Of a DNA stretch of 64,000 bases, positions 14,217 through 57,269 are shown piece by piece. Position numbers and translations under genes: made by a program. Positions within the stretch are counted from its first letter, which is position 1, and every line of letters begins with the position of its first letter. The notes under the pieces were generated by a model. It made no database searches, was not told the origin of the DNA, and saw nothing but the letters and a program-made list of their open reading frames with translations. This DNA comes from the human T2T-CHM13v2.0 reference genome, Homo sapiens. The stretch lies in the NCBI RefSeq assembly GCF_009914755.1, contig NC_060940.1; one strand, given 5' to 3'.

Positions 14217-14258
14217 GTTTCAAGACAACAGATGAATTGTGAAAGAGAGCAGCTAAGG
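14217..14258 (+). other. RBFOX1: RBFOX1 42-nt internal exon (15 nt before the ATG, 27 nt coding)
   Basis: Long polypyrimidine tract (about 14143-14214), branch-like CTGAC (A at 14186), acceptor TTTCTAG| at 14216, donor |GTAGGT at 14259. Confidence 0.93.
14232..14258 (+). CDS. RBFOX1: RBFOX1 (RNA binding fox-1 homolog 1 / A2BP1): coding part of the start-codon exon, MNCEREQLR
   Basis: ATG AAT TGT GAA AGA GAG CAG CTA AGG translates to MNCEREQLR, the N-terminus I recall for canonical human RBFOX1. It ends at a phase-0 donor AGG|GTAGGT (14259). ORF-track entry 14232..14417 simply reads on into the intron. Confidence 0.95.
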
Positions 14259-44750: not shown

Positions 44751-46974
44751 GAAGGTTTCAGCACTGATTCAGTTGAGTTTATCAAGTCATTTTTCACATT
44801 TCGTTCAGTGTTTAGTAACACAACTGTTTAATGAAGGCTTGCAGACTTTCTTTCATAAAGTTTAAAGTTGTATGCTGATTGCTGTATATAATTAATGTAT
44901 CACAATGGCATTCAATTTCTGTAGCAGATCAGAAGCCACTGAAACAGAGAGGCCACCAGTAGCTTAATCAGTGTTGGTTTCAGGCTATTGCTTTGCAGTT
45001 GATTAATTATTGTGTTGAGTTGATAACTGATAACTGGATTAATTATTTTAAAATAATTTCTCTTGAAGCTTGACAACAAGAGTTGTAAATGTTTCCACTG
45101 TGAAAGCAGCTCTGGACCTACCAGCCTGCTTGTAAATATGGAAAAAAATGGTTTTGAATTGAATATTTGAATATATTTACTTTGTTATTAAAATGATTTA
45201 AAATGGAAGGTTTTGGGAGTGACAATAAATAGAAAATGTCACTCTGCTCATTTCAAGGAACAAGGTTTGAGGAATTGATTGAATCATCAATTTGGTTATG
45301 AGCAGAATTTAAAACATAGAAATAATTTGCTGACACCCCCCGAGGGGACAGTCCACGGAATGTTCCATTCCGTCTGTTTAACCTCTGGACTCCAGAGTAC
45401 AGGGATTGTAACACCTCCCACACTTGATTAATGGGAAACAGCTGTCTCCTGCTTGTGTCACAGTGATAAAATGTTTCTCCATCTTAGGGCGAATCTCATT
45501 CCTTGCAGAGGGACCACATGTTCAAGCAGGTGGGAGAATGAATGGGTGCAAACTGAGCAGAGGCAGGAAGAGCATAACCAGGGGACTCATTTAGGCTCAC
45601 AGAAGCTTAAGATTAAATATAAAAAAACAAGAAATGACACATACCAATCCACTGGTGTATCAGAGGCCATGAAGTATAGCCTGTGTACACCCCTCACCGT
45701 GGATCAAATGGGTTTCTTTGTTGGCTTTCTCAGAGCTTGTAAGAGAACTCAGTCTGCTAACTCAGATGCACAAGAAACAACTTATTACATTATTCATTTT
45801 TAATCAGTTTAATTTTAAATCCAGATTCTTATCCCTATCAGGCAAAATGTTCACTTTCAGCTATTTCACTCCTTTCCCTTTTCCTAGAGATGGGCAAGAG
45901 CCTGGGAGAAGGTAGTGCCCAGAAGGCACCGTGCATGGGTCAGTTGTTAGTGGTTGCCATGGTGACATTTGCTTTCAGGTACACATAGTGCATCTTGGCT
46001 TGGTGGCTCCCTTGGTTCTCTACCATCCTGAGGAATGGTGACTCTGTGGTGAAGCTAGGAACCCTATCACTTAGCATCCTGCCCACCTAGAGGTACCATG
46101 CAGCTGTTTTTTTCCTGGGACCCAGAGCTGTTTGCCCCGCTCACAGTCTTGATACCCTGTGACCTGTTAAAGGCCCTAACACTCTCCTGATCATCTTTCA
46201 GGTCATTTACCCTAATCCCACCCGGGGGCTTCTGATCAAACGTCTGCAAAGCATGGGCAAATAAATGTGTGGGACAGACCTGGTATAATACAATCAAAAT
46301 ATGGAAGGACTGTGGTAAACAGGAGAGCATGATTCAGGTCCAAAGGCATTCAGATGCAATTAAATATAACAGAACACTGTGCTGGTCAAATGGACTATAT
46401 ATGTATATATGTGTGTGTGTGTATAGAGGTATGAACTAATATATATGTATGAAATACATATATACACACACACTTATATGTGAGGGAGTAGTGGAGGAGG
46501 GAAGAAAGAAAAAAATGTGGATAGAAAAAAGCATATTAATATTTGAACAAATAATCTTGCTATGTACACCTCGAAGAGGAAAAAAGAAAATGTGAATTTG
46601 CATGGACCTAGTAATGTCTTACTTAGAGAGATCCATTCTTTCCTTTAGCTGATTTCAGAAGGCCACTTGTGAGAAATAGTGCCCCATGCAGCAATGCCCC
46701 AAAAGAAAGGGGAATGTCAAGGTGCTGCCTCATAACTGACTTCAGTGACTATGTGAGAGGTATAAAGGATTTCAGAGGTGGTGATACATTTCTTCAAATT
46801 GAGCTTCAAAGACCAGAGGCTGATTGGTCTCCTGTGCTCACTTGCCCTAAGTGAAATGAGGTTTCTCCGTAATGTAGAATAGGTGACCTGTAACTCTCAT
46901 TGCAGAAAATGAGCATTGAGTGAATGTAAAATGTACACACAACCATGATGTGTTCATATTCCCCCCTCTCTCAT

Positions 46975-47165
46975 GTCTGTCTGTATCTGGCAATCTTGTC
47001 TGTCTGTCTGTCTTTCTGTCTATCTATCTATCCATCTATCTATCTTCTATCCGTTTGTCCAACCAGCCATTCAGCCATCCATCCATTTGTCCATCCATGC
47101 ATCTATTCATCTATCTATGTATCTGTCTGTCTGTCTGTCCATCCGTCCATCCATCCATGCATCCC
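46975..47165. repeat. Compound (TCTG)n/(TCTA)n/(TCCA)n tetranucleotide repeat
   Basis: Direct reading; source of three spurious ORFs. Confidence 0.95.
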
Positions 47166-47307
47166 ACTAATATGTCAGTGTCTTACTCAGAATGGAAATA
47201 CTGAAGATAAAGTAGGTATTATATTGTAAAAGTTCTATATGAACGCCGTATCTAAAGTTGTGTGTGTGTGTGTGTTTGTGTGTGTACTTACATCTCAGAT
47301 CAAATAA

Positions 47308-47670
47308 AGAGGCTACAAACATAAATGCCTCCAAGGGCCAGGCCTATAAAGGAAAATTGGTTATTCTACTTGCCAAATAACATCTGATTCCATGGATTGA
47401 TGCAAACTAGAGAACTGGAACATGTTTGTCACCTAAAGAGAACAGCTGCCACTCAGCACCGGCTCATGGTTATCACTTTGAAAATGTAGACCTTACCTTG
47501 CTGGATCAGCCAGTACTTCAAAAAAAAATATATATGTGCAAGTTATTTGAAATCTCTTGGTTTTTAAATATTGGCAAATAAGTTATGTTTCAAAAAAGTA
47601 TCGATATATTGGCCAAATGAACTGCACCGTCAGGGTATTTGCTGGCATGGATTTGACCGATTCACCACCA
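47308..47670. mobile_element. MER102-like hAT-Charlie element
   Basis: AAATGCCTCCAAGGGCCAGG...CAGCTGCCACTCAGC...TTTTTAAATATTGGCAA. Confidence 0.65.
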
Positions 47671-47957
47671 CTGCATCCCGGGTGCCTCCACAGAGATAGA
47701 TACAGAGCACGTGTTCAGTAGAATATTTGTGGAATCAATGAATGAACATATGCCTGCAAAATTTTAAAGAGTAGGGTGCTTAGTTATTTTTCCCTAAGTT
47801 TTCCTATCAGAAAGGGCACATTTTGTCCCTGTGCAAATTGAGAATTTGTGGGGATCATGTCCGGAGGTGATCTCTGTCACCGGAAACCATAAGAAAGATG
47901 AATTTTCGGTTTTTTCTTCACTGTAATGACAGAGTGTGTTCAGAACTTCTCCCAAGT

Positions 47958-48068
47958 AGGAGAAAGCAATCAATCCTGGTTTGTTCAGATGGTCCTGGTT
48001 TTAGCACTGAAAATCCTGCATCCCAGGAAACCGTTCTGCCCCATCAAACCAGGATGGTTGGTGATTCG
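47958..48068. mobile_element. MER81-like hAT-Blackjack element
   Basis: TCCTGGTTTG...GTTTTAGCACTGAAAATCCTGCATCCCAGGAAACC...CAAACCAGGATGGTTGGT. Confidence 0.75.
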
Positions 48069-49049
48069 GTTCTTGATGCTCTGTGCTGTGATTCATGGGC
48101 TCTAAAATGTACTAAGCAGATTGGTCAGTGTATGTGCCTGATTGAGAACTTGTCAGTTGAGGGCTGTGTTGTTATTTTCTTACCTCTCTGAGATAGCCAG
48201 CTCTGAGGCTGTCTCCATCACTGCTTGTTTTATGGCATGGCTTGGTGGTGATTCTCTCCATCATGCTTAGCCAGTATGCATCTTGATGGGACTACCTATA
48301 GGCTATTTTAACAGGTTACTCGCCACCCGTCTCATGCTGCCAATGATTCCACAGTTTACCTAATGCTTTTTAATTGTTTAGGTTGACATTTTGCCATGCG
48401 CAGTTGTAGGTAAAAATTTAAATCAACAAGGGGCTCGGTTAAGCAGTTTTCTCTGTGTGCCATGTAAAAATATCACTAATGGTCAAAACTCAGACCTGAG
48501 CAAGAGATAATATTTCCCCCTCTCCCCTTCTGTACATTGTATGTTTTAATATTAATTTCTTCTTTATCCATATATCAATAATTGAACACTGCATCAATTA
48601 ATATGCTGGGCAAATTGCATTCCCCATCCTCTCATTCATGATGTGTTTCAGTAATGGAGATAATTTTCAAGATAAAGCATACAATTTAAAATGGATTAAA
48701 AAGAAAAACTAATAAAGGAAAAGTGATTTATAGAAAAAAATTATGGATACTTTCAGGAAATCTTAGCTGTGCTTCCAAGCCGATGGATTTTGTAAGGAGA
48801 GCCTATTGAAACGATCAAGTTTTATGCCTGCTGCAAAATTTCCTAGGTCTGCGATTGCAAAGAGAGGGAGGGAAGAATGTATACACACACACACACACAC
48901 ACACTTTAAAATTTGGTCTTCTAATGAGGGCGTGTGTATCATCTTCATCCTTAGATTAGGAAGCCACAGATTCATGCTAGCAAGTCTTCTTGAAGCTTTC
49001 CATTTGCTGGGCTTAGTTGGTGGGGCTTGGTTTTTTGCTTTTGATTTGC

Positions 49050-49800
49050 TGAATTGGCACACAGGCTTCTGACGGCCCATCCCCCGGCCCTCCTTCCCTT
49101 TTCCCGGTCCACACCCTGGCTGAGAGCCCTGCACAGAGATGGGCAGGCGGCAGCTGCAGCGATGGGCAGGACCGCAGCCTCTGAGCCCGCAATGACACCG
49201 TGGCGTCGGTAGATGGCTGTAGACAAGTGTGCTGAGCTGTGCGGTGTGAAGAGTAATGAGTCTGGGGAGGCCTTGACCTGACTGGATGCTGCTTTTATCT
49301 GAAGTACATTTAAAGAGATAAAGGGGAAGCCGGGTTGCTGCACATGTTCTTTTCTCTGCGGCTGGAGCTTTACTTTGAGTTTAAAAAAATTCTCAGATGC
49401 TGGCCTCCCAGAGTCACCGGCTCTGTGCAGATGGGCTTGCCTCAAGAGGATCGGCCGCCTTCCTGTAAATTCCACCAGTGGGGCTTCCGTGAATCTCCCA
49501 CCCGCCATCAGGAAATGGTGTAGTGCCTGTCTGTTGATGATCAACACCATCGCTAGTATTATGAATATTGCTAGTATCATCAGTTTTTGTTTTCGCCACT
49601 GTGGCTGGCCGCCTAAAGTGTCTGGATTTGCTCATTAAACAGCCAAACCAAGAATTTGTTACCTAAGCAGGCTTGACAGAAAAGAGAAGAAGGGCAAGAG
49701 TTAGGAAGGGAAAAGAGAGAGAGAGAAGGAGGGAGAGAGGGAGGGAGGGAGGGGGAGAGAGAGGGAGAGAGAGAGAGGCAGCCAGAAGCAAGTCACATCA
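49050..49800 (+). promoter_or_regulatory. Candidate internal promoter (CpG-enriched segment followed by a GA-repeat)
   Basis: About 20 CpGs in about 550 bp (49070-49620) by manual count, well above the window background. A 76-nt purine tract follows. The surroundings are Alu-free and a candidate first-exon donor lies at 50024. Confidence 0.5.
49703..49778. repeat. 76-nt pure purine (GA) tract including the G4 motif GGGAGGGAGGGAGGGGG
   Basis: Direct reading. Confidence 0.95.
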
Positions 49801-50005
49801 CATACAGTGCCACTGAAGGAATGTTATCCTCATAAACTCATAAACAAGCACACCAAATCTTGTGTAAGGAAAGAAGAGGGTCTCTAAGGACTTGACAGGA
49901 AAAGGCAAGATTTTCTACCCACTGCTTTCAGTTTTTCTTCCAGATACTCTTGGTGAAGTAAGGAGACTTCTGTTTGCTGACAGAGCCCTTGATTTCTCTT
50001 TCAAG

Positions 50006-50023
50006 ATGATGATGTATTTGTGG
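50006..50023 (+). CDS. RBFOX1: Candidate alternative RBFOX1 N-terminal coding segment MMMYLW
   Basis: AAG ATG ATG ATG TAT TTG TGG|GTAGGT: triple ATG with a purine at -3, and a phase-0 donor with the same GTAGGT hexamer as the known exon. It sits downstream of a promoter-like region. Confidence 0.55.
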
Positions 50024-50033
50024 GTAGGTAGTG

Positions 50034-50090
50034 TCTCTTCCTCTGTCTCTCTTTCTCTTTCTCTCTCTCTCTCGCTCTCTCTTTCTCTCT
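50034..50090. repeat. (CT)n-rich pyrimidine tract
   Basis: Direct reading. Confidence 0.95.
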
Positions 50091-53000
50091 GATTAATAAA
50101 TTGACTTTGGGGATAAAGATTGCAGCCCAGAGTAATCGCATTTTGTGTAAGGTGATTATACTTGTGGCAGAATAATCTTGCACTGGTATAGTACATGTGC
50201 TCGCATTTCCAGTGGGAGTTCAGGCAAGACCTGGTTCATTAGCATTAAGCTGCAATTTTATTTTCAGTTGCAAAAAGGAATGACAAAAAAATGTGTATGT
50301 GTATGGGGTTTGGGGGGATGTACGGTTTTCTGTTTTTTGAAAACATTGATGGTGGTGAATTCAGAAAAAAGGTCTAGGGAAGTCGGGTTAGACATGAAGC
50401 AAATCCTACATCACTTGTAGCTGTGAGGTATTTCATTTAATTACCAAGAATGAACTGCTCTGAGTAGTGATGGCTTTGTTTATTTGTTTTGTTTTTGTTT
50501 CTGTTTCTCTCTCACAAGTGACTACTTATTTGTCATTTTGGGGTTGAGTGCTGTAGAGGAGAGTAGCGTCTTTCATTTGCTTTAACCAGATGTGTGTCCG
50601 TATGTGTGTATGTGAGAGTATATTTTACAAGATTGGTCTTGAAAAAGGTAGATTTACATGCACTTATTCTGGCTTTCTGATAAATACTCTGTAGTTGTTT
50701 TTTGTTGTTTTTTTTTTCTGGAGATCGTATTAAAATAAGAGCAATGAAGTGGTAACCCGTAGTTATGAATTACAATATTTAACTCTTGAAGCAAGAAAAA
50801 AATAGTAATCTAGCATGAATGGTTTAGAAAAAATTACTTATTATGTTTTGGGAGACAAATATATATCCTAGTGGAGTTTAGCCAATAAAGAGCATGTGTG
50901 AATTTCTTATGCCAGTAACCAAAGTCCTTGCTCTGTGATTTCAGGTTTAGAGCAGGTGTTCCCTGCTTTGCCAAGGGAGGGAGGCGTTTTCGAGGTTCAA
51001 CTCAACCTCTGTCTTTCATCAGCATCATCATCACTGTTGTTTTTCGTTGCTCGGCAGGCTTAGAAAATCCTCTTTATCCGCTTCCCTCCAGTCCCTGCTC
51101 TGGTTCAACTCAGATCTATGAACTCTCTTTGCTGTAAAGGAAGAAGGCCTTTTTGTTGAATTCTTTGTTAATCACATTGGTTCTTTGACCTCTGCTGGTC
51201 TCTAGGTCTGCCTTGCCCCTCAGTGAGCCTTGTCATTTACACCCTTGCCCCCTTTCTTTGGGACATTTTCCTTTGTAGCGACTTTAGCTCCATTTCCACC
51301 CGGTTTAGTTTTGCACAATTTAGTACAATGAATTCCGGCAGCTGGAGACAGAGTTTATTATTATTTTGTCTTCATTTCAGGGCAAGTTTTCTCTTCGAGC
51401 TTGCGTATCACGAAAGAGGTATTTTGAAATATAAAATCACTAGTTAAAACTGCATGAACTTAATAGAGAGTTCTATCTAACAACACTGAATTCTCATAAC
51501 ATTTATTTTTGACAGTGGAGGTTGAAGCAATTAAAATTTTGAATGTTTACAAATGCTGATTTTTAAGCATTAAAAAAAAGTAGTCACGTGGGATTGTCGC
51601 CTCAATAATTAAGGAAAAAACTATACTAGCATTTCATGGAAAGGAGCCTTTTTGGCTTTTATTTTGTGAACAGATTCTGGTTAATTATAAACAAATATCA
51701 ATAATTCCTTTAGGCTGTGGTGAGTTGGTTGCTAGTCACACTCTTTCTCTGAGTTGTTAAGTAGTGTCTGTGATATTATTTATGAAGTTTGTTAGCTCTT
51801 ACATATGTACATATTTGCAACTCAAAGCAGAGGAAAAATGATGCGTGTCCCAGACCCCCTTCCACATCCGAAAAACTTGCTGATTTGTTTCCTAGTAATT
51901 AATCTTGACTTAAAAGCAGCATCCCTCAATTTCTATTTTCTTCTCTCAGACCAATGCATTTTAGGGCTACATGGCTTTATTAACTGCATTTATCACATTG
52001 AAAAATGGGCACTACCTTCCTTTCCTGTGCTCAAGTATTCTATTTACATCTTTAATTCAGATTTTTTTTCTGCATTCAAAAAAAAAAATGGCAGAGACTT
52101 TAAATTGGAACAGCTGGATGCAGGCTGTTTAAGGAGATATGAATTAGCAAGCTAGCATTAACACTGTGAGGTTGGAGGGGTTTTCCATTCTTTTCTTCTT
52201 CTTCTTTTTTAATGCAGAGGTTCTGCTCTTGCCTTCTAGTCTGTAAATAAAGATAGTCTAAATGTGGTTGATATCTCTGTTTAAGAGCTCATCTTGCTTT
52301 AGGAAAATGAGCCTCAGCTACATTGATGTGTGAAAATAGTGGTTGCTACTGTCTCATGGATATAAAAGTGAAAATGAAGAGACAAGGAGAGACAATAAAA
52401 TAGAATCCATATTCAGTTTACTCCTGTCATTGTTTCTTAAATTTGTAAAGTAACCTCTTTATATGCACCTATCTGTGTTAATAGCACACGATTTCAGTAT
52501 GTTTTTACTAAGATGGAAAACTTTTTGCTGGGGGGAGGTGTGGGGTAGATGGTATAGTCTCCCTTCTCTAGACTGACTTTGTCATTTTAGTCTATAAGGA
52601 TGGTCCTGTGTATTTGAAAGGTAAAGAAATGCTTTGGAATCGTATCAATTAAAAATAGTGTGGCCCCATTAAGCCAGTCCAATTAAATAGTTACAGATGC
52701 TTAATATGTCCATCATTTGGTGTCATCTCAGATTTATACATTTTTTTCCCTTAAATTTCTTTAAGAAGGTTTTCCTATCAAAAATAAATTTTGTAGTTTT
52801 CGTTGTATTTTATTTTCCCTGAGTGAGTACAGGTTGCTGTACAGGGGAAAGAAAGTTGAGTTCTCTGCAACCATTGGCTGACTTCCGGGCGGTTTTGATT
52901 CACCAAACTTGGCCACGGTAGGAGGGGGAAACAGCCTTCCCTACGGACTTCTTGGAAAAGCAGGGAAGTCACTTTTACTGAGGATGTGATCTGAGCTGAG

Positions 53001-56000
53001 CACCAGGCTACACTTGCCGTAGAATGAAGTAAAACCCTCTTGACCAGCACAACCTCCCTTGACCAGCACAAACTCCTGCTCTCCTGTGGTTATTTAATTC
53101 CGCCAGGATTAGAGGTTCTTTGGAATACAATTGAGCTGTTTCTCCTAGGGCTGGAAAGTAGGCATTTGGCACCTACTCATCTAATTCACAAACAGGATAC
53201 AAATTCCTCTGCCACTCAAGTCTTGGACCAAATGGTCCCCGCTTAAACTCTACTACAATAGGTATTTGTTTGACTTTATAACCTTTTCGTTTCTCTTTAC
53301 TTCTTTAGTTGGTTGAAACAAATAACTCTTTCCATTTTATTATTTTTACTCACATTTTCTCATTTACATTCCAAATACACTTCCTCTGTTTTTACTTTAA
53401 GTTAAAATACTGCAATTTTTAATTTTAACTTTACTTTTTTTTTTGTTACAAATTTGGTGTTCCATTTATTCACTGAAAATAACTTTTCTTCACTTTATCA
53501 TTTCACACTTCATCCTCACCTTTTAAAAACTTTTTTTTTTTAGAAATATCATTTTATAGAAACATACCTGGGTTTAAAATGGGAGAAGAGCAACAAGTCA
53601 AGTCAAGAATTTCTGAGGGATGTTGAAAAGACGGGGAGAGAGTTATGCCAGGCGGCAGCATCTCTCCTTTTACCAATGTAGTTCAGTCACTTAAAAAAAA
53701 AAAAGAAGAAAACGAAAATGCATCATTTTTTCTACAGGATCCTGAGAGTCCTCTACCTCCCAGAGTGTGTTACACTTGGCAGAAACTCCACCACCCAGAC
53801 AGCTCCAGTTCTCAGCCTGCTGTAAGCAAACTTGTGAAGTAGCTGCCTGTGGCTTATCTCTGCTCTTTCACCCCATCCTCAGTACTGGGGGAGCCTCCTC
53901 TGAATTCTGCATTTTCTTTCCTGAATGCTAAAGCTTTTTCTGATCTGTACTCTACATTCTAGAGCTTCGTTATTAACTGAGTATAGAGATGGCCTGATTT
54001 GTAGATTCTATGTGGATCAGAGATTATGCAGAAGTTGCAGATATAGAGTTGCTTTATTGTCTTGGATCATCATGCCAGTTTAATTTAAGGTCTTTCAGGA
54101 CAGAAACAACATCTGCCCATTTTGTTTGACATTCTCTTTTCCCCTTTATTTCAAACAATACACGTGCCCTTTGTAGTAAAATTAGTCAATGAGAAAAAAA
54201 ATAAATAGCACCACCTCTTCTAGCACCTAAGATATATGCTGGAACACTGGTTAAACTCTTAAAGATATTTAAAGACATCTTAAAGATGTTTTTATAACAT
54301 GCACACACACCCTTCTTTTCTCAATTTGAATATAGCATTGATTACAAAGTTACAAGGTATAGCACTGTTTTATTAGTAGGGTTTGTTGTTGTTTGTTTCT
54401 CTTGTTTGTTTCTGCTTTAGTGTGTGTTTGTGGAGAGCCAGAAATGCTATCGCATTAAAAGCCTGTATCAATTGTAAAACACATCTCCATTTCAGATACA
54501 TTAAAATGTGAAGAAGGAAAAACAAAGCCTCTGAGAGGAAATACTCTGTTTCAAAAAATGAGATCACACTGCTTTAGAACTTACTGTTTTGTAACCTGCT
54601 TTTATCACTTAACATTTTGTGCCATTCAATATTTTTCCACAACAGCCTCTTTAATACTGTATAGACAGTGTTCCAGCGAATGGCGATTCCAGAACTTATT
54701 TAACCAATTCTTTGATTATCAGTTGTTTCTGCTTATAAAAATCCTTGCTAGTTCCTGGTATGGTGTGAATGCATTCACTAATCATATATGTATTTGTTCA
54801 GTGGGTTGGTTATTGACAGAGCCTTTACGGACTTGGGCACTGTCTATGGTACTGCGCCTTGGGGGACGCACAGTTAAGTTAAAAGTATGTTAAAAGGTAT
54901 GAAGAGCTGAAAACAGAGGATTGCTTGTTAATATTAATCACCTGTTGATTGCAGTTCACAAGTTTGGTAATTATTTTTTCTTCAAGTATTCTGTCCCCTT
55001 TACCAAATCGAAGGCTGGGACATCCGCCTTTTCACAGTGATTCTTCTTTCCGCCTTGGTGCACTGGAGGCCTAAGTGTCATCTGTTTTTTTCCAAGTTAG
55101 TTGACGCATTCGTTGAATGGTTCCTTTTCGTAGGAACTTGTGCTGGAAATTGCCTCTGGCAGTCAAAGGAAACATTTTTGTTTTGGAGAGAGAAATTTTC
55201 GTTTTTTATTCCAAAGTTCAGCATTTCTGTGTTTCCTATGAGTGCAGTGCTTTACAGCAAAATGCCTCAGGAATACAAAGATGACTTCTTTTACCCCAGT
55301 GAATTCTGATTCAGAAATTCGTTTCTGTTGACCTGGCAAGTTCATTCAGCACCCATACTGGTCACCGTGTATCTCAGTTAGGGGGCTGAGAAAATGGCCC
55401 AGCAGACTCTGATTACTGTGATGAAGGTGTTCATTATATTATCCCTTATCTTTCTTGACTGTGATGTATACTGAGCTTGCCTCTCTTGTCTGTGTCACCA
55501 GGAGATAGTTCAGAGCCCTGAATGTTCTCTGTTGTCTCGAATATTCCAGCCGCCATGTTTTTCTTGCATACCCAGCCCACTTCTTCTTTGACACTCTGAC
55601 ATAGTCACATCTTTAATGTTGCTTAAAGATGTTTTTGAACATTTGGAAAGGGCTAGTTTCCCAGCATCTTTAAGTCAGAGGTACCCACTTATCCAGATAC
55701 TCTTCAGGCAGAGGAATGATGATGGACCCTCATGAACATCTCAAACTTCTCGTTGATTAGAGGGAAACTGGATGGATCGAAAGTTAATGAATGGGAGCTC
55801 ATTTGTGACTTACATCTTCCCCCTCTAGCTTAACCATTCATGGCCTCCCCACTCACTGCAGACTTTGTCTGGCAGAGGGAGTAATACGCTATTTTCCGCT
55901 TGAGCACCCAGAAGCTGTTGATGTAAATTGATCAGTACTTTTTTGTGTTTTCCTGAAATTCTGTTTACATGCACATTTCTTCTTTGTCTGTAAAGTGATT

Positions 56001-56907
56001 TGTATCATAAAGCCACATCCATTTTTTCCCACTGTAATAATGAGACAAAACTCATTGAATATTTGTGTTTAAAGATTCTTGGAAAACATAATGGTGTGAC
56101 TATATAAGGCGTATATAATTTTTTTAAACAAAACCTGGTGAGTATTAATAAAAACAATGATGTTGTCTTTATGATTGTGTTTTAAACATAGTAATTGGTC
56201 AAGTGGATGTTCCTTAGTGCTAGAGGATCAGAGCAAAACATACTAGATGTGAAATAGCCCTTCTCTTCTTCATTTTACATTTTGAGTGGTGTTTCACTTA
56301 CCTTTAGAAAATTTTCCAAACCTTCAGACAAATACTTGATCAAATGATGCGGGTTTGAAAGACATAAGCAAATTAGTTTCTGTGCAAACTTGTGTCCCCA
56401 TTCAGAGAAGAACAAATTGAAAAATTGATATTCAATACCAACAAGATAATTTCGGGAAGCAATAGAGCATTGTTTTGACCACTAAGGAACATGAAGCTTT
56501 TAGGAGAAGTAGAGAGAGCTTTGCCCATTGTCTTCCATTTATTATCCGAAGACATTCCAGGTGAAAAAAAACATGGGAAGGAAAGGTAGGAAGAGAAAGC
56601 TTTGAAAATGATTTGGAGACATGCAATGCTATTTCAAGTGGTTCTGGGGACTGGATAGAATACATCATTGCTTTCTTTGCATTCCTATGTCATCTTCTCC
56701 TGATGTTATCATTCGAAGTCAGACTGTCAAATCCTGTGTATTGGGAAACACTCTTTGTTCCCTTGACTTGGGGACTCCTGCATTTCTTTTGAAGTTTTTT
56801 TTTTTTTTTTAAATCATTACATTGTTCACCCTACTCCAATGTCTTGTTAGTGGTTGGGTGGTATGGCTAAGATGGCTGATGAACTGAAATAAGGGCAGAC
56901 TGTACAG

Positions 56908-56908
<1 letters not shown>

Positions 56909-56944
<36 letters not shown>

Positions 56945-56985
56945 GGTGTGTGTGTGTGTTGAGAGAGAGAGAGATTGAGACAGAG
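56909..56985. repeat. (TG)n-(GA)n compound microsatellite
   Basis: Direct reading. Confidence 0.95.
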
Positions 56986-57110
56986 GGTAAGAGAATTTTT
57001 CTGCTTACATTTAAATAACTCACTTATGGATAACATTTGGATAACGTGTTCTCTTTAATCACACAGACTTTTGCCCCGTCTCTTAATACCTGTAGAACAA
57101 ATATTGTATC

Positions 57111-57158
57111 TGTAAACATCTATTGTAAACATCAGTGTAAACATCAAAGGTAAACATC
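57111..57158. repeat. 4x GTAAACATC tandem motif array (forkhead consensus)
   Basis: GTAAACATC at 57112, 57125, 57137 and 57150. Confidence 0.9.
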
Positions 57159-57269
57159 AATTGTGGAATAACCTTTTTACTCTTACAGAGTGATTTGCAA
57201 TTCTGTTATTTGCAAATCTGTCTATATTTTGTTGATGATATTAGTAATTTGTTTTAACTAGAATGTTCT

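What the first reader, a model, noticed from the sequence alone, without database searches (positions are those of the whole stretch)
49779..50029. Candidate alternative first coding exon of RBFOX1 giving an MMMYLW N-terminus
Seen: ...TTTCAAG ATG ATG ATG TAT TTG TGG|GTAGGT (50006-50023; donor 50024). It has three tandem ATGs, each with A at -3, 18 coding nt, phase 0, and the same donor hexamer as the MNCEREQLR exon. Established: RBFOX1 isoforms swap short N-terminal peptides onto a common exon starting GNQEAAAAPDTMAQPY. Inference: this exon splices to that common exon to give MMMYLW-GNQEAAAAP..., driven by the adjacent promoter-like region. I cannot tell whether predicted gene models already include it.
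Basis: partly seen in the sequence, partly recalled or inferred. Interest (0 to 1): 0.85.

Follow-up and report, generated by a model that had tools for sequence, protein, structure and literature searches.

The report
Ancient unannotated RBFOX1 first coding exon
A tiny six-codon start exon (MMMYLW) hidden in a huge RBFOX1 intron has near-identical copies in the sister genes RBFOX2 and RBFOX3 and in RBFOX3 gene models from sharks to birds, so it is very probably a real, very old alternative start of this brain and muscle splicing regulator.

Summary
The sequence is exactly as described: ATG ATG ATG TAT TTG TGG | GTAGGT at 50006-50029, the same donor hexamer as the annotated MNCEREQLR exon. No RefSeq RBFOX1 model (53 mRNAs) has an exon here.

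5 of 14 GTAGGT hexamers on this strand have an in-frame, stop-free ATG upstream.

Independent evidence supports the conclusion:
- 18 of the 239 vertebrate proteins fetched begin MMMYFW (one MMYFW) directly followed by the GNQ exon. 16 are named RBFOX3; they come from skate, shark, gar, teleosts, salamander, turtles and duck.
- A genome-wide search for M-M-M-Y-[L/F]-W+GT finds three exact sites (about 0.18 expected). One is this site. One lies in RBFOX3, sense strand, 105 kb upstream of its GNQ exon.
- RBFOX2 carries MMYLW|GTGAGT 85 kb upstream of its GNQ exon.
- All three copies have a purine-rich tract 150-220 nt upstream.

I conclude it is an ancestral RBFOX alternative first coding exon retained in RBFOX1. 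Human transcript evidence and RBFOX1 orthologues could not be examined. I found no mention of the peptide in print.

The parts
49678..49788 (+). Purine-rich (GA / GGGAGGG) tract, 218 nt upstream of the first ATG; candidate promoter or leader element shared with the RBFOX2 and RBFOX3 copies
   Evidence: It is the only sense-strand stretch in the 64-kb window with >=95% purines over 60 nt. A like tract lies 211 nt upstream of the RBFOX2 ATG; it is one of 2 in the 110 kb scanned. A weaker one (>=85% purine) lies 158 nt upstream of the RBFOX3 ATG. The tracts align with each other.
49789..50005 (+). Putative 5' leader; the transcription start is somewhere here or upstream and was not located. It holds one out-of-frame upstream ATG at 49821 (4-codon ORF) and an in-frame stop at -141.
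   Evidence: There is no significant similarity to the RBFOX2 or RBFOX3 leaders (scores 9.0, 7.5 and 10.5, within the shuffle range). The region has 1 CpG in 430 nt and 44% G+C, so it is not a CpG island.
50006..50023 (+). Coding part of the candidate first exon: ATG ATG ATG TAT TTG TGG = MMMYLW, ending in phase 0
   Evidence: It differs by 1 of 18 nt from the RBFOX3 copy (TTG vs TTT, L vs F). RBFOX2 has ATG ATG TAC CTC TGG = MMYLW, which is synonymous at Y and L. 18 of 239 fetched proteins begin MMMYFW/MMYFW followed by GNQ.
50024..50029 (+). 5' splice donor GTAGGT (TGG|GTAGGTA)
   Evidence: The paralogues have GTGAGTA (RBFOX2) and GTATGTA (RBFOX3). The GT and the GTA at +5 to +7 are invariant in the three-way alignment.
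50030..50095 (+). CT-rich tract just after the donor, reverse-complementary to the GA tract. It is specific to RBFOX1 and is not part of the conserved module.
   Evidence: arms 49712-49762 and 50034-50084, 51 nt, 73% complementary; predicted long stem. No such tract follows the RBFOX2 or RBFOX3 exons.

Best explanation
Window 50006-50023 is the coding end of an unannotated alternative first exon of RBFOX1. It descends from a first exon that already existed in the single ancestral RBFOX gene, before RBFOX1, RBFOX2 and RBFOX3 separated. Transcription would start downstream of, or within, the GA-rich tract (49678-49788). The leader would run to the ATG cluster and translation would start there. 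The donor at 50024 would splice over about 432 kb to the common exon at chr16:7549723, giving MMMYLW-GNQEAAAAPDTMAQPY... The exon, its frame, its donor and its paralogues are shown. The splice partner is inferred from the fish, turtle, bird and shark RBFOX3 models that read MMMYFW|GNQ. The start site, the expressing tissue and the role of the hexapeptide are inferred or unknown. Selection appears to act on the six codons and the donor rather than on the leader, so the peptide itself probably matters. A hydrophobic Met-Met-Met-Tyr N-terminus could set N-terminal acetylation or protein stability; this is speculation from general N-end-rule knowledge.
For: (a): 18 of 239 fetched proteins carry MMMYFW (one MMYFW) directly before GNQ/GNP. 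16 of the 18 start with it. Species: Danio (two loci), Gadus, Scophthalmus, Scleropages, Epinephelus, Doryrhamphus, Cottoperca, Lepisosteus, Pleurodeles, Terrapene, Mauremys, Natator, Anas, Rhinoraja and Heterodontus. (b): the pattern ATGATGATGTAYYTNTGGGT has 3 exact hits in 3.1 Gb against about 0.18 expected. They are this site, chr17:80115316-335 on the sense strand of RBFOX3, and one antisense hit in KMO, taken as chance. (c): RBFOX2 has ATGATGTACCTCTGG|GTGAGT on its sense strand, 84.8 kb upstream of its GNQ exon. It was the only hit in the 110 kb scanned, with about 9e-5 expected. (d) Differences among the three human copies are synonymous or conservative: TAT/TAC/TAT and TTG/CTC/TTT. The flanking leaders show no similarity above shuffles. 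This is the pattern expected of a coding constraint. (e) An upstream purine tract is present in all three. (f) Each copy has a purine at -3 of the first ATG, an in-frame stop upstream, and 0-1 upstream ATGs in 330 nt. (g) Exon order is the same in two genes. The MMMY-W exon lies 5' of the ...F(M/L)YLQQ exon and that lies 5' of the GNQ exon, in both RBFOX1 and RBFOX3. (h) RBFOX1 already has annotated first exons contributing 1, 11, 29 and 34 codons, and an exon carrying a 9-codon start (MNCEREQLR), all joining the same exon. (i) The exon lies in the longest repeat-free stretch of RBFOX1 (12,475 nt; 1 of 1606 gaps).
Against: There is no transcript, junction, CAGE or peptide evidence for human RBFOX1; none of these could be examined here. 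RefSeq RS_2025_08 has no exon and no functional element here. None of the 239 proteins reads MMMYLW, and none of the 18 carriers is named RBFOX1 or RBFOX2 or comes from a mammal. The mammalian RBFOX3 entries seen (for example P0045, P0074, P0079, P0090, P0100) start otherwise. However, one search was capped at 308 aa and one search was biased to RBFOX3. The text of the mouse P0 cortex Iso-Seq paper names first exons E1A-E1F and mentions none between exon 7 and E1E (sections 3 and 16 read, figures and supplement not seen). The RBFOX1 copy is CpG-poor with no recognisable core promoter. RBFOX1 orthologues in other species could not be checked, so constraint on the RBFOX1 copy is inferred from human paralogues alone.
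Confidence: 0.75

Rival explanations
1. A relic in RBFOX1. The exon is real and used in RBFOX3 (and perhaps RBFOX2), but in the human RBFOX1 lineage the promoter is silent. On this reading the intact sequence reflects past constraint, or present constraint of another sort such as an enhancer.
For: All 16 of the 18 carriers that bear a gene name are named RBFOX3. There is no RefSeq model for RBFOX1. The RBFOX1 copy is CpG-poor whereas the RBFOX3 copy sits in CpG-rich DNA (1 vs 22 CpG in 430 nt). The mouse Iso-Seq text lists no such first exon.
Against: The paralogues separated before sharks and bony vertebrates split. Callorhinchus has distinct RBFOX1 and RBFOX3 proteins (P0006, P0055). Unconstrained DNA would not keep 17 of 18 nt plus the donor over that time. 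Every element needed for use is intact: three ATGs, an open frame and GT.
Confidence: 0.12
2. An internal 18-nt cassette (microexon) rather than, or as well as, a first exon. On this reading AAG at 50003-50005 would act as the acceptor, giving ...MNCEREQLR-MMMYLW-GNQ... in transcripts from upstream promoters.
For: Read. A pyrimidine-rich run (49986-50002) precedes AAG|ATG. A CTGAC branch-point-like motif lies 26 nt upstream (A at 49980). The length is a multiple of 3 with no stop. The other 5' coding exons of RBFOX1 are 33-63 nt and are all multiples of 3.
Against: The acceptor is not conserved. RBFOX2 has ...CTGAC|ATG and RBFOX3 has ...CCGAA|ATG, with no AG. A at -3 of an acceptor is disfavoured (recalled consensus). 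16 of the 18 homologous models start at the first Met. The GA/CT stem predicted for long pre-mRNAs would bury the exon.
Confidence: 0.08
3. Chance: an ATG-plus-donor pseudo-exon in a deep intron, with no function and no homology.
For: Such configurations are common: 5 of 14 GTAGGT and 16 of 46 GTRRGT on the + strand. The site is unannotated.
Against: About 1.3e-5 exact matches to the MMMY[L/F]W+GT pattern are expected in this intron, and about 0.002 even for MMMxxW+GT. The same motif sits at the equivalent place in both paralogues, each with an upstream purine tract.
Confidence: 0.03

Closest known systems
RBFOX3 N-terminal exon MMMYFW in predicted and Ensembl-derived gene models of non-mammalian vertebrates (for example P0057 and P0089 Danio, P0147 Natator, P0150 Anas, P0166 Rhinoraja, P0168 Heterodontus)
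   Same: A six-codon ORF with three Met, then Tyr, a hydrophobic residue and Trp, ending in phase 0 and joined directly to the GNQ exon. The human RBFOX3 locus has the same 18 nt apart from one base.
   Different: It is in a different gene (RBFOX3, not RBFOX1) and has F instead of L. The human RBFOX3 copy lies in CpG-rich DNA 105 kb from its GNQ exon, against CpG-poor DNA and 432 kb in RBFOX1. Whether the human or any mammalian RBFOX3 copy is annotated could not be checked; only chr16 annotation was on hand.
Annotated RBFOX1 exons carrying an alternative start that join chr16:7549723: MEEKGSRMVQQ, MLASQ...GLIQ and MMQHP...FMYLQQ (first exons), and the 42-nt internal exon with MNCEREQLR
   Same: Each gives a short N-terminal peptide, ends in phase 0, joins the same acceptor and lies in the same orientation. 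MEEK..MVxQ is likewise shared with fish RBFOX1 and with RBFOX2 (MEKKKMVTQ, P0069).
   Different: Those are in RefSeq and this one is not. It is the shortest peptide except for the models whose first exon supplies only the ATG.
Mouse Rbfox1 alternative first exons E1A-E1F (Casanovas et al. 2020, PMC7214753; Kuroyanagi 2009, PMC2777236)
   Same: The same gene architecture: many promoters and first exons spread over the long 5' region, stage- and tissue-specific.
   Different: The text read (sections 3 and 16, and section 7 of the review) names no exon at this position and gives no N-terminal peptide sequences. Figures and supplements were not seen.

Membership tests
Alternative first coding exon of an RBFOX gene | ATG-initiated open frame that ends at a GT donor in the phase (0) required by the common GNQ exon, on the gene's sense strand and upstream of that exon | tested here: met
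   18 nt, no stop, GTAGGT donor. The GNQ exon starts in phase 0 at chr16:7549723, 431.7 kb downstream.
Alternative first coding exon of an RBFOX gene | Homologous exon used as the N-terminus in related genes or species | tested here: met
   18 of 239 fetched proteins read MMMYFW/MMYFW followed by GNQ. Human RBFOX3 and RBFOX2 loci carry the same ORF plus donor. No RBFOX1 orthologue with it was seen, and the searches were not suited to finding one.
Alternative first coding exon of an RBFOX gene | First in-frame ATG of the transcript (upstream in-frame stop, few upstream ATGs) | tested here: met
   in-frame stops at -141, -18 and -120 in RBFOX1, 2 and 3. There are 1, 0 and 1 upstream ATGs in 330 nt, both out of frame. 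This holds only if the start site lies within that stretch.
Alternative first coding exon of an RBFOX gene | Own transcription start or promoter | tested here: inconclusive
   A purine tract is conserved upstream in all three paralogues. The site lies in the longest repeat-free block of the gene. But there is no CpG island, no RefSeq functional element, and no CAGE or chromatin data on hand.
Alternative first coding exon of an RBFOX gene | Transcript evidence: reads starting in the exon and spliced 50023 to the GNQ exon | not testable with these tools
   Sequencing reads are off for this job. RefSeq has no such model.
Neuronal microexon (3-27 nt internal cassette) | Functional 3' splice site (AG, pyrimidine tract, branch point) directly upstream, conserved with the exon | tested here: not met
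   RBFOX1 has AAG with a pyrimidine run and CTGAC. RBFOX2 (GAC|ATG) and RBFOX3 (GAA|ATG) have no AG. The acceptor is therefore not part of what is conserved.
Neuronal microexon (3-27 nt internal cassette) | Frame-preserving length and no stop codon | tested here: met
   18 nt, no stop.

The most novel reading that the evidence does not exclude
The ancestral RBFOX gene already had a dedicated promoter. Its first exon encodes only the near-invariant hexapeptide MMMY(L/F)W. All three human paralogues have kept this module (purine tract, short leader, ATG cluster, donor) since before the cartilaginous/bony fish split, yet it is unannotated in RBFOX1 RefSeq and was not found in the searched literature. 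On this reading the hexapeptide defines a distinct class of RBFOX proteoforms, for example with different N-terminal acetylation, stability or partner binding. In RBFOX1 the GA/CU stem would keep the donor silent in pre-mRNAs from upstream promoters, while transcripts that start between the two arms could use it.
Probability: 0.3. Interest if true: 0.75.

Novelty: new member of a known kind. Interest (0 to 1): 0.6.

Why it matters
RBFOX1 is a dosage-sensitive neuronal, heart and muscle splicing regulator. Its disease-linked copy-number variants fall mostly in the long 5' region and remove some promoters but not others (PMC7214753, introduction). An extra, deeply conserved promoter and first coding exon 36 kb downstream of the MNCEREQLR exon would change which deletions are read as hitting a transcript. 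It would add one more RBFOX1 N-terminal proteoform. It would also show that part of the alternative-promoter architecture of the family predates the gene duplications. The six-residue peptide, conserved in RBFOX3 models from sharks to birds and encoded at all three human loci, is a small and testable handle on why RBFOX genes keep so many N-termini.

Tried and rejected
(1) DNA search of the human genome with window 49780-50110. Only the CT microsatellite (query 252-317) matched elsewhere. A 20-nt paralogous match is below BLAST's reach, so this blank said nothing.

(2) First protein search with the GNQ exon. None of the 19 hits carried the peptide.

(3) Pattern search with 2 mismatches. It gave 447 hits and the list was cut before chr22, so it was useless for RBFOX2. 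I scanned the fetched loci locally instead.

(4) Alignment of the leaders and of the intron starts among the three paralogues. Leader scores were within the shuffle range, so I claim no homology there. Of the three intron-start comparisons, RBFOX2 against RBFOX3 was reached by only 5 of 500 shuffles (1v3: 26 of 500; 1v2: 329 of 500); I did not follow this up. The GA-tract alignment (30 vs 17.8 +/- 2.9, max 25) is low-complexity. I count it only as 'a tract is present'.

(5) BLASTP of the RBFOX1 ...FMYLQQ exon against a gecko RBFOX3 protein aligned only the last 6 residues (E 0.036). The collinearity argument is therefore suggestive, not proven.

(6) Rfam gave one sub-threshold mir-1277-like hit (27 vs 81 bits), rejected as chance.

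(7) GCATG motifs near the three exons occur at about the expected density, so I make no autoregulation claim.

(8) Literature. The peptide strings MMMYLW, MMMYFW, MMYLW(G) and MMYFW(G) gave only one unrelated ecology preprint, seen in the listing only. The topic searches gave PMC7214753 (outline, sections 3 and 16, and passages read), PMC11204294 (outline and passages) and PMC2777236 (section 7 and passages). Damianov & Black 2010, Yang et al. 2008, Underwood et al. 2005, Conboy 2017 and Nakahata & Kawamoto 2005 are not held. Any of these five may describe the RBFOX2 or RBFOX1 exon.

(9) Supplements are closed. Supplementary Figure S1 of PMC7214753 (all Iso-Seq first exons) and the HAR coordinate tables of PMC11204294 may bear on this site and I did not see them.

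Full report
WHAT IS IN THE SEQUENCE

Window 50006-50023 reads ATG ATG ATG TAT TTG TGG and is followed by GTAGGT. Each ATG has A at -3, and the six codons end in phase 0. The annotated 42-nt RBFOX1 exon at 14217-14258 ends ...AGG|GTAGGT, the same donor hexamer.

The common exon that every RBFOX1 model uses next lies at chr16:7549723-7549965. It translates GNQEAAAAPDTMAQPY.... RefSeq joins several N-terminal coding exons to it in phase 0:
- [11 protein letters not shown]
- [29 protein letters not shown]
- [34 protein letters not shown]
- the MNCEREQLR exon (an internal exon that carries a start codon)
- further upstream, models whose first exon supplies only the ATG

The observation and the 'established' part of the finding are therefore correct. 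None of the 53 RefSeq RBFOX1 mRNAs has an exon at 49779-50029. No functional element or masked repeat is listed there.

IS THE PATTERN ITSELF MORE THAN CHANCE? NO

- On the + strand of this window, 5 of 14 GTAGGT hexamers have an in-frame ATG with no stop in between. One of these is the real exon.
- On the - strand the figure is 1 of 7.
- For the wider class GTRRGT it is 16 of 46 on the + strand and 10 of 47 on the - strand.

WHAT CHANGED THE PICTURE

I climbed from the GNQ exon to longer RBFOX proteins in three searches and read the residues in front of GNQ in all 239 proteins fetched.

- Eighteen carry MMMYFW (one MMYFW) directly before GNQ/GNP.
- Sixteen of them have it as the very N-terminus.
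- Two (gar P0142, Cottoperca P0148) have an upstream extension that looks like a translated leader.
- Sixteen are named RBFOX3 and two are named 'RRM domain-containing protein'.
- They come from two zebrafish loci, cod, turbot, arowana, grouper, pipefish, gar, a salamander, three turtles, duck, a skate and a horn shark.

THE HUMAN PARALOGUES

A genome-wide search for ATGATGATGTAYYTNTGGGT found three exact sites in 3.1 Gb. About 0.18 are expected from base composition.
- One is the candidate.
- One is chr17:80115316-80115335 on the minus strand, which is the sense strand of RBFOX3. It reads ATG ATG ATG TAT TTT TGG|GTATGT and lies 104.6 kb upstream of the RBFOX3 GNQ exon.
- The third is antisense in KMO and is taken as chance.

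A local scan covered 110 kb of the RBFOX2 upstream region, 60 kb of RBFOX3 and both strands of the window. It found one site per gene and none on the window's antisense strand. In RBFOX2 the site is ATG ATG TAC CTC TGG|GTGAGT at chr22:36354579-36354565, 84.8 kb upstream of its GNQ exon.

Expected chance counts are about 1e-5 for the RBFOX1 intron, 2e-5 for RBFOX3 and 1e-4 for RBFOX2.

SIGNATURE OF THE CONSTRAINT

Among the three human copies the codons differ only as TAT/TAC/TAT (Tyr) and TTG/CTC/TTT (Leu/Leu/Phe). The GT and the GTA at +5 to +7 are invariant.

The 150-215 nt leaders do not align better than shuffled sequence (370, 355 and 56 of 500 shuffles reach the observed leader scores). 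For the first 150 nt of the introns the counts are 329 and 26 of 500, but only 5 of 500 for RBFOX2 against RBFOX3; that weak signal was not followed up. Conservation confined mainly to a tiny ORF and its donor, with synonymous change inside it, is what a translated exon predicts. It is not what an enhancer or a chance match predicts.

Each copy has a purine at -3 of the first ATG, an in-frame stop upstream (-141, -18, -120) and at most one out-of-frame upstream ATG in 330 nt.

PROMOTER SIDE

Each copy has a purine-rich tract at a similar distance upstream:

| Gene | Tract | Distance from ATG | How rare |
|---|---|---|---|
| RBFOX1 | 49678-49788 | 218 nt | the only >=95% purine stretch on the sense strand of the window |
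| RBFOX2 | 73 nt long | 211 nt | one of two in the 110 kb scanned |
| RBFOX3 | weaker (>=85% purine) | 158 nt | not counted |

This fits a shared promoter or leader element, but it is low-complexity sequence and I could not locate a start site. The RBFOX1 copy is CpG-poor (1 CpG in 430 nt, 44% G+C). The RBFOX3 copy is CpG-rich (22 CpG, 62% G+C).

The RBFOX1 exon sits in a 12,475-nt stretch without any masked repeat. It is the only gap that long among 1606 inside RBFOX1, and among the top 147 of 104,066 on chr16.

EXON ORDER

In RBFOX1 the order is MMMYLW exon, then the ...FMYLQQ exon (7335661), then MLASQ... (7364301), then MEEK... (7541853), then GNQ.

In human RBFOX3 an MLCSMANSG...FLYLQQ|GT exon lies at chr17:80078471-80078367, between the MMMYFW exon and the GNQ exon. 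The two ...YLQQ exons are of like length (34 and 35 codons), but BLASTP aligns only their last six residues. The collinearity is therefore suggestive only.

FIRST EXON OR CASSETTE?

RBFOX1 alone has an acceptor-like context: a pyrimidine run, AAG, and CTGAC 26 nt upstream. RBFOX2 and RBFOX3 have no AG before the ATGs, and 16 of 18 homologous models start at the first Met. The conserved role is that of a first exon. Extra use as an 18-nt cassette in RBFOX1 is not excluded.

EVIDENCE AGAINST, AND GAPS

- No expression data of any kind could be consulted.
- No protein among the 239 reads MMMYLW, and none of the 18 carriers is named RBFOX1 or RBFOX2 or comes from a mammal.
- The searches were length-limited or RBFOX3-biased, and the database is clustered at 90% identity. 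A six-residue variant would be hidden, so this blank is weak.
- The mouse P0-cortex Iso-Seq study names first exons E1A-E1F and, in the text I read, mentions none at this position.
- The older papers that defined the Fox-1/Fox-2 first exons are not held, and supplements are closed.
- Whether GENCODE, or RefSeq for RBFOX2 and RBFOX3, already carries these exons could not be checked.
- Full-text searches for the peptide strings found nothing relevant.

VERDICT

This is a real, ancient element. It is most likely an alternative promoter-linked first coding exon, inherited from the ancestral RBFOX gene and retained in RBFOX1, and not annotated in RefSeq for this assembly. It is a new member of a known kind (RBFOX alternative first exons), not a new kind of thing. 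Its interest lies in three points: its depth of conservation, its relevance to reading 5' RBFOX1 deletions, and the near-invariant hexapeptide whose role is unknown.

Noticed in passing
window 44759-57233: A 12,475-nt stretch without any masked repeat of 100 nt or more. It is the only gap that long among 1606 inter-repeat gaps inside RBFOX1 and among the top 147 of 104,066 on chr16. This suggests a densely constrained regulatory block around the candidate exon. Whether published human accelerated regions or conserved elements fall in it could not be checked because the coordinates are in closed supplements.
   Followed up: partly
window 49712-49786 and 50034-50090: The GA tract upstream and the CT tract just after the donor are reverse-complementary (51-nt arms, 73%). 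As RNA they are predicted to pair in a long stem that loops out the whole exon and abuts the donor (-157.3 vs -138.8 +/- 6.4 kcal/mol for shuffles, z = -2.87). The stem could hide the donor in pre-mRNAs from upstream promoters, and the DNA could form a triplex. It is not conserved in RBFOX2 or RBFOX3.
   Followed up: partly
L039 5565-5579 (chr22:36354565-36354579, minus strand) and L020 1503-1520 (chr17:80115318-80115335, minus strand): Human RBFOX2 and RBFOX3 each carry the paralogous tiny ORF plus donor: MMYLW|GTGAGT and MMMYFW|GTATGT. Their annotation status in human could not be checked here. The RBFOX3 copy lies in CpG-rich DNA (22 CpG in 430 nt).
   Followed up: partly
L032 8367-8471 (chr17:80078367-80078471, minus strand): Human RBFOX3 has an MLCSMANSG...FLYLQQ|GT exon matching the N-terminus of reptile and amphibian RBFOX3 models. 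It ends like the annotated RBFOX1 exon MMQHP...FMYLQQ. This hints that a second alternative first exon is also shared between the paralogues.
   Followed up: partly
window 50595-50676 (+): A sub-threshold Rfam match to the mir-1277 precursor family (27.2 bits against a gathering score of 81, E 0.039). Probably chance.
   Followed up: no
window 14218-14225 and 49999-50006: The annotated MNCEREQLR exon begins GTTTCAAGA... and the candidate's ATG cluster is preceded by CTTTCAAG-A. They share the 8-mer TTTCAAGA as well as the donor hexamer GTAGGT. This may be chance and was not tested.
   Followed up: no
protein P0044 (Ascaphus truei RBFOX3): Its N-terminus ends ...VQVHLW directly before GNQ. This may be a diverged or mis-started version of the same exon in a frog.
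   Followed up: no
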